Of a stretch of 31,463 bases of DNA, positions 4,306 to 30,054 are shown in pieces (position 1 is the first letter of the stretch; each line of letters opens with the position of its first letter). The stretch spans positions 1 through 31,463 of the forward strand of contig JAHFLM010000001.1 in assembly GCA_023244865.1 (NCBI GenBank), read 5' to 3'. A program made the position numbers and the translations under genes. Origin of the DNA: Candidatus Harrisonbacteria bacterium (lineage in GTDB: Bacteria > Patescibacteriota > Minisyncoccia > UBA6257 > UBA11618). The notes beneath the pieces were generated by a model. That model was given only the letters and a program-made list of their open reading frames with translations. It was not told the DNA's origin and searched no databases.

Positions 4306-4620
4306 TTAACCCTCTCCTTCCATTCTCTCGGCAACGGTGGTGTTAGCCAAAATCGCGGTAATTAACCTTCCTATGTCAGAAAAAGCAACAATCAGTCCAT
4401 TGTGATTCGAAAATTGAATTTCAATAGAGCACTGTGTTTTGTCAGCATTTTTTTCATATTTGGTAACCTCCGCGCCTGGCATTAAGAATGCTTTTGCTAC
4501 ATCGGTTAATTCGGCGGCCTGCCCTACTTTTCCCTTTGACTCCACTTGAAACAGATAGGTATTTTCACTTGACCCCACCTGCTCAACCAAGAGTTTGAAA
4601 TACTGACTTTCAAATTTCAT
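4306..4620 (-). CDS. hypothetical protein, paralog array type B
   Basis: Starts MKFESQYF; AAGGAG RBS. Confidence 0.8.
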   Translation of the reverse strand: MKFESQYFKLLVEQVGSSENTYLFQVESKGKVGQAAELTDVAKAFLMPGAEVTKYEKNADKTQCSIEIQFSNHNGLIVAFSDIGRLITAILANTTVAERMEGEG

Positions 4621-7530: not shown

Positions 7531-7648
7531 TGTCATTCAGAGCCCAATTCCGTTTGATTCTCCAAAGAATCAATTCGGAATTGAGGCGTGGAATCTTCCA
7601 TGTCTTTCAGTTAACAATGACTAGATTCCTGCCTCCGCAGGAATGACA
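7531..7648. repeat. composite (BIME-like) repeat: family A copy 7531-7596 plus inverted short palindrome 7623-7648
   Basis: Same arrangement as 12239-12356. Confidence 0.8.
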
Positions 7649-7658
7649 AGCTAAACCC

Positions 7659-12238: not shown

Positions 12239-12356
12239 TGTCATTCAGAGCCCAATTCCGTTTGATTCCCCAAAGAATCAATTCGGAATCGAGGTGTGGA
12301 ATCTTCTTCGTCTACCACCAATCAACGATTAGATTCCTGCCTCCGCAGGAATGACA
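12239..12356. repeat. composite repeat: family A copy 12239-12304 plus inverted short palindrome 12331-12356
   Basis: Near-identical to 7531-7648. Confidence 0.8.
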
Positions 12357-12362
12357 AAATAC

Positions 12363-15397: not shown

Positions 15398-16300
15398 ATG
15401 AAGCGTTTTTGTTATTGCTTTATTTTTTTAGCCATCATCACCTTAAGTTTAGTGGTTGCCGCTAACCCAACTAATCCGAATTCTCTTCCAGATAATCAAA
15501 ACTACGCTGAGACACGAGAGGTTAAAACAGGCTTCTTTAATTTTCTTAAAAGAATTTTATTTGGTACAGATAATTTCGGGGACGGAGAGACATCTGAGGT
15601 TAACCTTTTAAGTACTCCAGAAATCAATAAAGCCGATCAAGCTTTGGGTTTTAGGCGACTTCTTAACGATGCCGATAAACAAATCAATGAGATAGATAAG
15701 CATCTTACCTACATAACCAAGACTTTCAATAAAACCAATCTCAATAATGCTAGCGAGGTTTTGAAGAAGCTAAATTTTAAATTAGCCGATCTCAAATCTT
15801 TATCAGTCAATTTAAGGAGTCAGCTAAATACCCCAGATTTCGATTACGATGATTCTTCAGTTTTGCTAAAAGACCATCTCTTAGTCGATTTAAAAGACTT
15901 TCGTTCCAACCTTTTTATTTTTGAGAATTTAGAAAATTATTCTAAGTCTATTAAGAGTTTTGAAAAAGATTTATCTCGCCTAAAAACCAAACTCGATTTT
16001 CTGACCAAGCAAAAGAAAGATACCAAGGAAGCCGAAGCTTTAGCTAGGGAAATTTTTTCCAACCTAGAAGATTTTAAAGGCTATCTTTCTCTCAGTGAAG
16101 AATTAGATTATGAAAAGATTTTTAATTTTGAATCTTCTCTTGAGAAAAATAAGAATACTTTAAGCGACGAACTCTTCACCCTTCAGGGTTATATTAAAAA
16201 AGATGATTTAAGCAGAGTAGAAAGAGGGGAACGCGATAGCGCGAGAGCCTTCAATCCATCCAACCTCGGCGCCTCAGCCTTGCGCATCCTTTACCGCTAA
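15398..16300 (+). CDS. hypothetical secreted or membrane-anchored helical protein
   Basis: N-terminal hydrophobic segment and a coiled-coil-like body. Confidence 0.7.
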   Translation: MKRFCYCFIFLAIITLSLVVAANPTNPNSLPDNQNYAETREVKTGFFNFLKRILFGTDNFGDGETSEVNLLSTPEINKADQALGFRRLLNDADKQINEIDKHLTYITKTFNKTNLNNASEVLKKLNFKLADLKSLSVNLRSQLNTPDFDYDDSSVLLKDHLLVDLKDFRSNLFIFENLENYSKSIKSFEKDLSRLKTKLDFLTKQKKDTKEAEALAREIFSNLEDFKGYLSLSEELDYEKIFNFESSLEKNKNTLSDELFTLQGYIKKDDLSRVERGERDSARAFNPSNLGASALRILYR

Positions 16301-16349
16301 CTTATCCACCGACATTGACAGATTGACTGTTATTTCATAATCTTAAATT

Positions 16350-16413
16350 AGGTCTTCTTTCGGAGGGGGGGTGATCCACGGTCTAACCGGCAGCCTAAGG
16401 CGCCGGTTTTTTT
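16350..16413 (+). ncRNA. candidate ~65-nt small RNA
   Basis: TTGACA (16315-16320), 17 nt, TAATCT (16338-16343), then a short hairpin, GGGGGGGTGATCCA, and a terminator aaccggc/gccggtt plus T-run; the next gene is convergent. Confidence 0.5.
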
Positions 16414-16458
16414 ATTCCCCACCTAACCACCACCCACCAAGTTTTAAAAATAAACTTT

Positions 16459-16553
16459 AATATAAAAAACAAAAAGTCCCCCTTTTGAAGAGTAAGACCG
16501 GGCTAGCACCCTCGGAGCGCTCTTCAAAAGGGGGACTTTTTGTTTTTTATATT
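16459..16553. repeat. perfect 34-bp inverted repeat with a 27-nt spacer, probably a bidirectional terminator
   Basis: 16459-16492 is the exact reverse complement of 16520-16553 and abuts the RF1 stop codon. Confidence 0.8.
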
Positions 16554-17279
16554 TTATTTTTTAAACGCCTCAATTATTTTATCCATATCCCCCTCCATAA
16601 TCTTCGGAATATTGTGCCACTTCTTTTCAATACGGTGGTCAGTGATCCTGTCCTGAGGGAAGTTATAAGTTCTAATTTTTTCAGATCTTTCGCCGTCACC
16701 AATCAATTCACGTCTAATGCCAGAGACTCGATCATGTTCTGCTTGGATTCTTGCCTCAAAAACTTTAGCGCGTAAAATTTCCATCGCCTTATCTTTATTT
16801 CTCGCCTGAGAGCGTTCATTTTGCGAAGCCACCACAACGCCAGTTGGCTTATGGACGATCCTTACCGCTGTTTCCACCTTGTTCACGTTCTGTCCGCCCG
16901 GGCCAGAAGATCTAAAGAAAGAAATCTCCAAATCTCCATTATTAATCGGTACCTCTTCCGCTTTCACGAGCGGCATTATTGCCACCGATGAAGTTGAGGT
17001 GTGGACTCGGCCAGCTCTTTCTGTGTCTGGCACGCGTTGCACTCGATGCACACCCGATTCCTGTTTCAAGTCATCGTAAACATGCTCACCCTCGAGTTCG
17101 GCCGTGATATTTTTATAACCATTAGTTGAAGTCGGGGCGTAGTCTAGGATAGTAAACATCCAAGCTCTTTTTTGAGCATAGCGTTGATACATACGAGCTA
17201 AATCCGCCGCAAAAATCGCCGACTCATCACCACCAGCCCCAGCTCTAATTTCTAAAATTATTTTCTGCCAGTTTTCCAT
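16554..17279 (-). CDS. prfA: peptide chain release factor 1 lacking N-terminal domain 1
   Basis: LEIRAGAGGDE, ESGVHRVQRVPDTE (PxT), GPGGQ and IRTYNFPQDRITDHR motifs; downstream of rpmE. Confidence 0.85.
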   Translation of the reverse strand: MENWQKIILEIRAGAGGDESAIFAADLARMYQRYAQKRAWMFTILDYAPTSTNGYKNITAELEGEHVYDDLKQESGVHRVQRVPDTERAGRVHTSTSSVAIMPLVKAEEVPINNGDLEISFFRSSGPGGQNVNKVETAVRIVHKPTGVVVASQNERSQARNKDKAMEILRAKVFEARIQAEHDRVSGIRRELIGDGERSEKIRTYNFPQDRITDHRIEKKWHNIPKIMEGDMDKIIEAFKK

Positions 17280-20602: not shown

Positions 20603-21015
20603 TGGAGAATTGCCTTTTCTGTAAAATCGCTAGTCATGAACTTAAGGCCAATTTCATCTATGAAGATGATAATGTCATGGCGATCTTAGATATTCATCCG
20701 TCTGCAACTGGTCACACTATGGTGATCCCGAAAGTGCACGCAAAAAACATGCTAGAGATTGAAGATTCCGCCATTCCCGAACTTTTTGCCACAGTAAAAA
20801 AAGTCCTACATCTTCTGAAAGATTCCCTTAACCCCAACGGCTTTACTATAGGAATCAATCATGGTAAGATCAGCGGACAGGAAATTGATCACCTGCATAT
20901 TCATCTCATTCCGCGCTACGAAGGGGATCGAGGCAACTCGGTGCAATCAGTGGTCAACTTTTCTGCAGAAGACAGGCTTAATGGTTTAAAGAAACTTATT
21001 TTAAAAAATAATTAA
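20602..21015 (+). CDS. HIT family hydrolase
   Basis: N-terminal CLFCKI, GHTMVIPK and the HLHIHLIPR triad. Confidence 0.92.
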   Translation: MENCLFCKIASHELKANFIYEDDNVMAILDIHPSATGHTMVIPKVHAKNMLEIEDSAIPELFATVKKVLHLLKDSLNPNGFTIGINHGKISGQEIDHLHIHLIPRYEGDRGNSVQSVVNFSAEDRLNGLKKLILKNN

Positions 21016-29693: not shown

Positions 29694-29704
29694 ATTATGC
29701 GTTT

Positions 29705-29730
29705 TGTCATTCCTGCGGAGGCAGGAATCT
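29705..29730 (+). repeat. short TGTCAT-tagged palindrome
   Basis: tgtcattcctgcggaggcaggaatct is the reverse complement of 7623-7648. Confidence 0.85.
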
Positions 29731-29796
29731 AATCTATTAACGTTATCCTCAATCCACTTATCCTGAATAGAGTTGGAGGGTGCGAGTCCTGCTAAT

Positions 29797-29942
29797 AAAA
29801 AAAGGCCATAAGGCCTTTTGAAAGACTGCGTGGGGAGTGACAGGATTTTGTTCGTTGGAACATTACCCGCACCTTTTCCGTCTCATAAAAGAGAATTTAG
29901 GAAACGCCCTGGATCCGGGCCGCACCTCTCCACGCAGTTTAT
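29797..29942 (-). ncRNA. candidate ~145-nt structured RNA (strand not certain)
   Basis: 13-bp closing helix (29825-29837 with 29926-29938) and three inner hairpins. Minus-strand promoter TTGATA, 16 nt, TATTAT (29976-29949) and a ggcc hairpin with T7. Confidence 0.45.
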
Positions 29943-30054
29943 CTCGCTATAATAGCAGTTAAATAAAATTTATCAACAGCTTAAACTTTGGCTTTAGCGA
30001 GCCTCTTTTCAGTCAACATTTGCATCACTTAACATACTCGTTCAAAATCATTCT

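What the first reader, a model, noticed from the sequence alone, without database searches (positions are those of the whole stretch)
16315..16413. Stand-alone ~65-nt sRNA complementary to the 16S rRNA 3' end
Seen: TTGACA-N17-TAATCT, a short 5' hairpin, AGGGGGGGTGATCCA (16364-16378), then an intrinsic terminator. No start codon follows the motif and the next gene is convergent. Known: the canonical 16S tail is ...UGGAUCACCUCCUUU. The motif can pair with 15 consecutive tail nucleotides (three as G-U), much longer than a normal Shine-Dalgarno. Inference: an anti-anti-SD decoy that could bind 30S subunits or pre-16S RNA (storage, maturation, or control of SD-led versus leaderless translation).
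Basis: partly seen in the sequence, partly recalled or inferred. Interest (0 to 1): 0.65.

Follow-up and report, generated by a model that had tools for sequence, protein, structure and literature searches.

The report
Conserved small RNA with orphan Shine-Dalgarno
This is very probably a real ~63-nt non-coding RNA gene of a few ultra-small groundwater bacteria. Its conserved core looks like a perfect ribosome-binding site with no gene behind it, yet this organism's own 16S rRNA lacks the sequence the RNA was proposed to bind.

Summary
The described features are all present: TTGACA-N17-TAATCT, a weak 5' hairpin, AGGGGGGGTGATCCA at 16364-16378, and a stem-loop plus U7 terminator, followed by a convergent gene (a domain-1-less RF1).

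The unit looks like a real gene.
- Consensus-type promoters in this genome are almost exclusively intergenic.
- A distant homologue, whose neighbouring protein is only 55% identical, keeps the -35 box, the exact 17-nt spacing, the start region and 15 of 16 motif bases.
- That homologue carries compensatory changes in the terminator.
- The overlapping GTG ORF changes frame between sister genomes, so it is not coding.

The decoy reading fails as written. This genome's only 16S ends ...GGAUCAUUUAAUUAG and contains no CUCCU anywhere, as in every relative checked and as published for a Parcubacteria subgroup. Pairing with the organism's own tail shrinks to 9 Watson-Crick plus 3 G-U pairs. No comparable anti-tail RNA exists in the relatives searched.

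The genome's mRNAs nevertheless carry classical extended SDs (AAGGAGGTG 21 times against 2 for the reversed word), and what reads them is unknown. Earlier notes of this scan reported the same paradox in other genomes.

Best reading: a new, narrowly distributed SD-mimic small RNA, always linked to a secreted coiled-coil protein gene, whose partner is unidentified. No transcript data were available.

The parts
15398..16300 (+). Partner gene: a 300-aa protein with a hydrophobic N-terminus that looks like a signal peptide (read by eye) and a coiled-coil-like sequence (weak NCBIfam match only), no Pfam family. It directly precedes the RNA unit in every locus that has the unit.
   Evidence: Only four homologues were found among 5.8 billion proteins, and all loci with downstream DNA carry the RNA unit.
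16315..16320 (+). -35 box TTGACA
   Evidence: It is identical in the distant homologue L166. 63 of 73 TTGACA-N16-18-TAnnnT sites in the genome are intergenic.
16338..16343 (+). -10 box TAATCT (TATCCT in the distant homologue), 17 nt after the -35 box
   Evidence: The spacer sequence diverged (9/17) but its length is kept.
16350..16413 (+). Predicted transcript of about 62-64 nt. The start is inferred from the -10 box; the end lies in the U-run.
   Evidence: Inference from the promoter and terminator. No RNA reads were available.
16351..16376 (+). Weak 5' hairpin in which the pyrimidine arm GGUCUUCUUUC pairs with the G-rich arm; the loop is GGAG.
   Evidence: There are no compensatory changes, and three outer pairs are deleted in the distant homologue.
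16361..16376 (+). Conserved core CGGAGGGGRGGUGAUC, an SD-like purine run plus UGAUC.
   Evidence: Matches are 15/16 with L166 and 15/16 with G001, and L166 and G001 are identical to each other.
16385..16413 (+). Intrinsic terminator: a 10-bp bulged stem with a GCC-UAA-GGC tip, followed by U7.
   Evidence: Two pairs carry compensatory double changes. The same hairpin type ends many genes in the clade.
16414..16438 (+). C/U-rich, G-poor tract just past the terminator. It can pair with the G-rich core in read-through RNA, or it may be a Rho-loading-type tract.
   Evidence: The composition is conserved but the sequence is not (13/25). One G-C to A-U double change is seen.

Best explanation
Window 16315-16413 holds a real, narrowly distributed small non-coding RNA gene of about 63 nt. 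It is transcribed from its own sigma-70-type promoter and shares an intrinsic terminator with the preceding gene for a secreted coiled-coil protein, so it is a 3'-UTR-embedded sRNA with its own promoter.

Shown:
- promoter geometry, start region, core motif and terminator structure are conserved between two lineages whose flanking protein is 55% identical;
- there is no conserved reading frame.

Inferred:
- The functional part is the invariant purine-rich 'super Shine-Dalgarno' CGGAGGGGRGGUGAUC, partly masked by a pyrimidine arm.
- The RNA works by base pairing through this element with pyrimidine-rich, anti-SD-like RNA. It thus acts as an untranslated SD mimic that competes with SD-led mRNAs for whatever reads SDs in this lineage.
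- Alternatively it soaks up CCUCC-displaying RNAs.
- Its partner is not the encoded 3' tail of this organism's 16S rRNA in the way first proposed.
For: Promoter:
- TTGACA-N16-18-TAnnnT occurs 73 times in the genome, 63 of them intergenic.
- 57 of the 93 intergenic TTGACA hexamers carry such a -10 box, and 46 of those 57 point at a gene start.
- Truly gene-less promoters number only about 3-4.

Conservation:
- The distant homologue L166 has a protein 55% identical and a CDS about 64% identical in DNA.
- It keeps the -35 box 6/6, a 17-nt spacer with 9/17 identity, the start region 8/8 and the motif 15/16.
- Its terminator matches 15/22 and carries two compensatory pairs.

Not coding:
- A 1-nt indel shifts the GTG frame between G000 and G001.
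- The frame also runs through the terminator.

Other points:
- No Rfam family matches.
- SDs are in active use in this genome: AGGAG and AAGGA are 7.5-fold enriched at -14 to -10.
- AAGGAGGTG occurs 21 times against 2 for the reversed word, and 17 of the 21 copies have a possible start codon (ATG, GTG or TTG) within 4-16 nt.
Against: - No transcript evidence exists. Metatranscriptomes of the same study contain no contigs of this organism.
- Only four sequences, forming two lineages, are known. The 5' hairpin has no covariation and is partly deleted in L166.
- No target was identified. The best intragenomic complements are coding-sense or terminator matches.
- Pairing with the CCUCC-loop repeat is only 6 bp. 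Pairing with the other orphan RNA on contig C67 is marginal (10 of 300 shuffles do as well).
- No CsrA or Hfq gene was found.
- -10 box TAATCT is a poor match to the consensus.
- Transcripts of the upstream gene must also cross this region, so a purely cis 3'-UTR role is possible.
Confidence: 0.5

Rival explanations
1. The region is only the 3' UTR and terminator of gene 15398-16300. The promoter-like boxes are not used, and the conserved G-rich element is a cis element of that mRNA, for example for stability or 3'-end formation.
For: Only 14 nt separate the stop codon from the -35 box, and no other terminator lies between them. The mRNA must therefore end at the same hairpin. The element is always found behind this one gene. 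-10 box matches TATAAT at only 3-4 of 6 positions.
Against: Between lineages the -35 box is kept exactly and the spacer length is kept while the spacer sequence diverges. That is the signature of a used promoter. In this genome such boxes are almost never found outside real promoter positions.
Confidence: 0.2
2. One reading: the RNA pairs with the 3' end of 16S or pre-16S rRNA. It would act as an anti-anti-SD decoy, or as a maturation or storage factor.
For: - The motif is a 12/12 Watson-Crick complement of the canonical UGGAUCACCUCC in G001, and a 15-nt complement with G-U pairs in G000.
- With the organism's own pre-16S it can form 23 pairs: 12 with CGUGGAUCAUUU and 11 with the trailer UCGAAAAAGAC.
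- That duplex has an energy of -27.4 kcal/mol. It is reached by 3 of 200 shuffles and 10 of 2000 random genomic 35-mers.
Against: - The organism's own 16S has no CCUCC, and neither do ten relatives. The G-run therefore has nothing canonical to pair with.
- Four of the nine Watson-Crick pairs lie inside helix 45.
- The trailer helix alone is unremarkable (8% of shuffles match it).
- G006, G007 and G011 have no RNA complementary to their own variant tails beyond control frequency.
- The unit is absent from the syntenic site in the rest of the family.
Confidence: 0.1
3. It is a decayed translation-initiation region: the promoter plus SD of a gene that was lost or truncated, now without function.
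For: GGAGGTGATCC directly before ATG is a recurrent true ribosome-binding site in the order; 6 of 30 inspected hits are of this kind. The module is an insertion relative to the rest of the family.
Against: A relic would not keep 15/16 motif bases and the promoter geometry in a lineage where the neighbouring protein has dropped to 55% identity. No ORF remnant is shared.
Confidence: 0.07
4. It is a leader plus a small gene: the SD-like run drives translation of the 29-codon GTG ORF at 16371-16460.
For: GGAGG lies 4 nt before the GTG.
Against: The frame shifts after codon 8 between G000 and G001. The ORF runs through the terminator, so the terminated RNA has no stop codon. The SD-to-start spacing is too short.
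Confidence: 0.03
5. The minus strand is the functional one. It would be an orphan copy of the lost 16S tail (GGAUCACC(U/C)CCCCUCC behind a hairpin) that supplies an anti-SD in trans.
For: This is the only intergenic GGATCACC in the genome. G001 reads UGGAUCACCUCC. SDs are in use although 16S has no anti-SD.
Against: - No minus-strand promoter is visible, and the region upstream on that strand is the least conserved part.
- The core differs between sister species (CCCCCCC against CCUCCCC), which is unlikely for a working anti-SD.
- It does not match the genome's preferred SD AAGGAGGUG beyond GGAGG.
- It is absent from about 400 other genomes of the order that share the same problem.
Confidence: 0.03

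Closest known systems
3'-UTR-embedded sRNAs with their own promoter (for example MicL and DapZ of enterobacteria; recalled from memory, not tested here)
   Same: The promoter sits at the end of, or just behind, a protein gene. The sRNA shares the mRNA's intrinsic terminator, is short, and has one conserved seed.
   Different: Those sRNAs need Hfq, and their seeds pair with mRNA ribosome-binding regions. Here no Hfq gene was found, and the seed itself looks like a ribosome-binding site.
STAB-SD and other orphan Shine-Dalgarno stabilisers of Bacillus (cryIIIA leader; Agaisse and Lereclus 1996; recalled from memory)
   Same: An SD sequence near the 5' end of an RNA has no start codon behind it and binds the small subunit without translation.
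   Different: STAB-SD acts in cis on a long mRNA and needs the CCUCC tail of 16S, which this genome's 16S gene lacks.
G-rich sponge sRNAs such as RsaI of Staphylococcus aureus, which pair with C-rich sRNAs (RsaE, RsaG, RsaD; recalled from memory)
   Same: A G-tract acts as the functional element opposite C-rich, anti-SD-like RNAs. The genome does contain CCUCC-displaying RNAs: a 19-copy hairpin and an orphan RNA on C67.
   Different: No significant pairing with those candidates was found. Pairing with the hairpin is 6 bp, and for the C67 RNA 10 of 300 shuffles do as well.
CsrB/RsmZ-type protein sponges (GGA motifs in hairpin loops)
   Same: GGA sits in the loop of the 5' hairpin, and a second GGA is present in G001 and L166.
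   Different: No CsrA gene was found in the 90.7%-complete genome. The RNA has only one or two GGA motifs rather than many.
Anti-SD-less 16S rRNA of a Parcubacteria subgroup (Tsurumaki et al. 2022, PMC9297842)
   Same: The host genome and all relatives checked show exactly this tail loss.
   Different: That paper assumes SD helices do not form, and Amin et al. 2018 (PMC6107228) found that SDs vanish together with the anti-SD. This genome keeps strong SDs and, in addition, an orphan SD on an sRNA.

Membership tests
Intrinsic (Rho-independent) terminator | A G+C-rich stem-loop directly followed by a U-run | tested here: met
   A 10-bp stem at 16385-16408 is followed by U7.
Intrinsic (Rho-independent) terminator | The stem is maintained by compensatory changes | tested here: met
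   Two pairs show double changes (C-G to A-U and C-G to G-C), and 97.5% of cells are paired.
Sigma-70-type promoter | -35 and -10 hexamers at 16-18 nt, with the spacing kept in relatives | tested here: met
   TTGACA-N17-TAATCT here and TTGACA-N17-TATCCT in L166, with 9/17 spacer identity.
Stand-alone or 3'-UTR-embedded trans-acting sRNA | A transcript with defined 5' and 3' ends is detected | not testable with these tools
   The listed RNA runs hold none of the sampled words of the stretch; of the two that were laid, one gave no contigs and the other only 36-nt pieces at 90-95% identity or less.
Stand-alone or 3'-UTR-embedded trans-acting sRNA | No conserved ORF, and a conserved seed | tested here: met
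   The frame shifts between G000 and G001. The core is 15/16 conserved against a roughly 55-64% background.
Stand-alone or 3'-UTR-embedded trans-acting sRNA | An identifiable target with conserved complementarity | tested here: inconclusive
   Searches found nothing above what shuffles give at the 1-3% level.
   The organism's own tail is GGAUCAUUUAAUUAG with no CCUCC. Only 9 Watson-Crick and 3 G-U pairs remain.
   Searches found only the 16S genes themselves. Searches found no homologues in 150 and 401 genomes of the order.
STAB-SD-type ribosome-binding stabiliser | An orphan SD near the 5' end with no start codon | tested here: met
   GGAGG lies 13 nt from the predicted start, and there is no conserved ORF.
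STAB-SD-type ribosome-binding stabiliser | A 16S anti-SD is available to pair with it | tested here: not met
CsrA/RsmA-titrating sRNA | A CsrA protein is encoded in the genome | tested here: not met
   PF02599 was not found in the 90.7%-complete genome.
Any Rfam 15 family | A score at or near the gathering threshold | tested here: not met
   The best overlapping hits are MicF and C4 at E 0.4-2.4, far below threshold.

The most novel reading that the evidence does not exclude
The RNA is one component of a trans-acting SD/anti-SD system in a lineage whose 16S lost its anti-SD. Two versions are conceivable.
- It is an SD mimic that titrates the still unidentified reader of the genome's many canonical SDs.
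- It is complementary to the canonical tail UGGAUCACCUCC but not to the organism's own. It could then be an effector RNA that, together with the co-inherited secreted coiled-coil protein, blocks the ribosomes of the host cells these episymbionts live on, leaving its maker's ribosomes untouched.
Probability: 0.06. Interest if true: 0.9.

Novelty: new member of a known kind. Interest (0 to 1): 0.5.

Why it matters
If real, this adds a conserved, uncatalogued sRNA to the very small set of regulatory RNAs known from CPR bacteria. Its seed has the opposite polarity to most known SD-directed sRNAs (many carry C-rich, anti-SD-like seeds), because it is itself SD-like.

It lies in a lineage with an open puzzle, which earlier notes of this scan also saw in other genomes. 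The 16S gene has no anti-SD, yet genes keep classical extended SDs. An abundant untranslated SD would be a natural probe for whatever reads those SDs. Pulling down its partners could make that question directly testable.

Tried and rejected
- Rfam, at gathering thresholds and at E up to 10: no family matched. SRP-RNA-like resemblances seen by eye were not supported.
- Covariance model from G000 and G001, searched over 150 genomes of the order: it hit only the clade's common terminator hairpin.
- Pattern scans of 401 genomes of the order: hits were coding sequence or true SDs. One loosely similar orphan, GGAGGTGATCCA plus a terminator in L041, was not shown to be related.
- Exact-pattern scans of the metagenome and genome collections: these found only the G001 haplotype and chance coding hits in Paracoccus.
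- RNA evidence: none was obtainable.
- Anti-tail RNAs in G006, G007 and G011: none found.
- Search for a hidden anti-SD: none found.
  - No downstream exon within 17 kb of the 16S gene.
  - No second helix 45.
  - Nothing at the 23S ends in two relatives.
  - All CACCTCCTT sites are SD complements or lie in coding sequence.
- Target searches: complementary k-mers; duplexes with the upstream mRNA in both lineages, with no shared site; the C67 12-mer, which is same-sense inside a secretion-ATPase gene.
- CsrA and Hfq genes: not found.
- Same-genus conservation is not informative. G000 and G001 are about 93-100% identical everywhere, including other spacers.

Full report
OBSERVATION

- TTGACA lies at 16315-16320, followed by a 17-nt spacer and TAATCT at 16338-16343.
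- AGGGGGGGTGATCCA lies at 16364-16378.
- The stem-loop spans 16385-16408, and seven T follow at 16407-16413.

The predicted fold of the roughly 64-nt RNA has a weak 5' hairpin, in which the pyrimidine arm GGUCUUCUUUC pairs with the G-run, plus the terminator. Its stability is not unusual (z -1.3 to -1.7).

The flanking genes are as follows.
- Upstream lies a 300-aa protein with a hydrophobic, signal-peptide-like N-terminus and a coiled-coil-like sequence, and no Pfam family (15398-16300, plus strand).
- Downstream, and convergent, lies a release factor 1 that lacks domain 1 (16554-17279, minus strand).
- A long palindromic repeat (16458-16554) lies between the unit and prfA. It recurs elsewhere in the genome.
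- No Rfam family matches the unit.

IS IT A GENE?

The promoter is probably real.
- TTGACA-N16-18-TAnnnT occurs 73 times in this genome, 63 of them intergenic.
- 57 of the 93 intergenic TTGACA hexamers carry such a -10 box, where about 10% would be expected by chance.
- 46 of those 57 point at a nearby co-oriented gene start.
- After inspection, only three or four such promoters have no gene behind them, and this is one of them.

Comparison with the same-genus genome G001 has little power. The two genomes are 93-100% identical throughout, spacers included. It does show a 1-nt indel that shifts the GTG ORF after codon 8. Together with the ORF running through the terminator, this rules out coding.

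The decisive evidence came from the neighbouring protein.
- It has only four homologues among 5.8 billion proteins.
- One of them is 55% identical and lies on a 1-kb JGI metagenome contig (L166).
- Behind it sits the same unit.
- Its -35 box matches 6/6. The spacer is exactly 17 nt but only 9/17 identical. The -10 box is TATCCT.
- The start region TAAATTAG matches 8/8, and the core CGGAGGGGAGGTGATC matches 15/16 (16/16 against G001).
- The terminator matches 15/22 and the tract beyond it 13/25, against about 64% identity in the CDS.
- The terminator carries two compensatory double changes.

This pattern of conserved islands, with kept spacing and a covarying stem, is what a used promoter, a functional RNA core and a working terminator should leave.

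Synteny adds a further point. In the other genera of the family, the transglycosylase gene is directly convergent with prfA. The coiled-coil gene plus the RNA unit is thus an inserted, co-inherited module. Because only 14 nt separate the stop codon from the -35 box, the upstream mRNA must end at the same terminator. The RNA is best described as a 3'-UTR-embedded sRNA with its own promoter.

No transcript data could be obtained. Metatranscriptomes of the source study contain no contigs of this organism.

IS IT DIRECTED AT THE 16S TAIL?

The genome's single 16S gene (contig C82) ends ...GCGUGGAUCAUUUAAUUAG. Its own terminator-like hairpin, a repeat and a protein gene follow directly.
- It contains no CUCCU anywhere.
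- There is no second helix 45 in the genome.
- Ten relatives across the order have the same kind of tail, GGAUCA(A/U)UUAA.
- None of 401 genomes of the order yielded a canonical tail in the pattern search.

This loss is published for a Parcubacteria subgroup (Tsurumaki et al. 2022, PMC9297842).

The G-run therefore has nothing canonical to pair with in this organism's own ribosome.
- What remains is UGAUCCACG pairing with CGUGGAUCA, four pairs of which lie inside helix 45, plus three G-U pairs.
- An 11-pair helix with the 16S trailer is also possible.
- The whole duplex (-27.4 kcal/mol) is reached by 3 of 200 shuffles and 10 of 2000 random genomic 35-mers.
- The trailer helix alone is reached by 8% of shuffles.
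- G006, G007 and G011, whose tails differ, carry no RNA complementary to their own tails beyond control frequency.

The decoy model as written is therefore not supported.

THE TWIST

The genome plainly uses classical SDs.
- AGGAG and AAGGA are 7.5-fold enriched, with a sharp peak at -14 to -10.
- AAGGAGGTG occurs 21 times against 2 for the reversed word, and 17 of the 21 copies have a possible start codon (ATG, GTG or TTG) within 4-16 nt.
- The near-complete relative G018 shows the same, including AAGGAGGTGATC.

Amin et al. 2018 (PMC6107228) found that organisms without an anti-SD normally lack SDs as well.

I could not find what reads these SDs.
- There is no downstream exon.
- Nothing is found at the 23S ends.
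- There is no separate tail gene.

Earlier notes of this scan report the same paradox in other Paceibacteria-type genomes, and CCUCCU-displaying small RNAs there as well. I had measured the paradox here before reading those notes, and I treat them as leads only.

The minus strand of the present locus is the only intergenic GGATCACC in the genome. I reject it as a trans anti-SD for four reasons.
- It has no promoter.
- Its core differs between sister species.
- It fits the preferred SD poorly.
- It is absent from the rest of the order.

MECHANISM

I commit to an untranslated SD mimic. The invariant purine-rich core, partly masked by the 5' pyrimidine arm, pairs with pyrimidine-rich, anti-SD-like RNA. 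It thereby competes with SD-led mRNAs for their unknown reader, or sponges CCUCC-bearing RNAs.

The C/U-rich tract beyond the terminator can pair with the core in read-through RNA, with one G-C to A-U double change. It could equally be a Rho-loading-type tract; that is inference.

Candidate partners in the genome gave no significant pairing.
- One is a 19-copy hairpin with a CCUCC loop in front of genes.
- The other is a second orphan RNA on contig C67 containing CCCUCCUCU.

CsrA and Hfq genes were not found.

COMPARISON AND VERDICT

The unit works like a 3'-UTR-embedded sRNA. Its orphan SD resembles STAB-SD, and its G-tract resembles sponge sRNAs such as RsaI. These parallels are recalled from memory and were not tested. 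It belongs to no catalogued family.

It is a new member of a known kind, namely a small regulatory RNA. It has an unusual SD-like seed, sits in an unusual anti-SD-less setting, and has a very narrow known distribution: two lineages from groundwater and drinking water.

Taxonomy was not verified. The submitter's label on the sister genome's contig is 'Candidatus Saccharibacteria', whereas the tail type matches what is published for Parcubacteria.

Noticed in passing
G000 contig C82:9349-10869 (16S gene; locus L001 1501-3021) and genome-wide: The only 16S gene ends GGAUCAUUUAAUUAG and has no CUCCU anywhere, yet the genome's genes carry classical extended SDs. AAGGAGGTG occurs 21 times against 2 for the reversed word, with a peak at -14 to -10. 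Nothing found here can read them. The near-complete relative G018 shows the same. The same paradox was noted before in this scan in other genomes.
   Followed up: partly
window 7619-7650, 12327-12358, 29703-29734 (minus strand); 19 copies genome-wide: A repeated motif, AGATTCCTGCCTCCGCAGGAATGACA, forms a hairpin that would display CCUCC in its loop. It usually sits 10-40 nt before a start codon and often has an inverted partial copy about 25 nt upstream. It is not in Rfam. It could be an operator, a MITE-like repeat or an anti-SD-displaying leader.
   Followed up: partly
window 16554-17279 (minus strand): Release factor 1 is only 241 aa and starts at about position 105 of full-length RF1, so domain 1 is missing. 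All 17 genomes of the family show the same roughly 245-260-aa frame. In several relatives the gene lies next to the 16S gene.
   Followed up: partly
window 16441-16566: A long perfect palindrome (AAAAAGTCCCCCTTTTGAAGAG ... and its complement) acts as a likely bidirectional terminator. Related copies lie on contigs C42, C15, C49, C27, C7 and after the 16S gene on C82. G001 has a different sequence at this site.
   Followed up: no
G000 contig C67:1404-1645 (plus strand; locus L112): A second gene-less consensus promoter drives a roughly 210-nt RNA closed by a long helix and a terminator (MFE -81 kcal/mol). It contains CCCUCCUCU, which pairs internally with a G-run. It has no Rfam match. It may belong to the anti-SD-bearing CPR small RNAs noted earlier in this scan.
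   Followed up: partly
G000 contig C9:~6200-6470 (minus strand; locus L108): A third consensus promoter has no evident gene behind it and no Rfam match.
   Followed up: no
G000 contigs C29:~4520-4580, C35:~1730-1790, C78:~20780-20860: A shared G-rich hairpin element (GGGTGGGTCGGAGGGGG ... CCCTCTCCG) lies 20-50 nt downstream of three tRNA genes (Met, Pro, Lys) on the tRNA strand.
   Followed up: no
L041:1470-1570 (genome G348, another family of the order): A -10-like box is followed by a C-run, GGAGGTGATCCA and a strong terminator, with no convincing gene. The layout resembles the finding, but homology was not shown.
   Followed up: partly
window 29797-29976 (minus strand): A promoter-to-terminator unit lies between the two ribonucleotide reductase genes. 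It was flagged by another first-stage note and has no Rfam match at gathering score.
   Followed up: no
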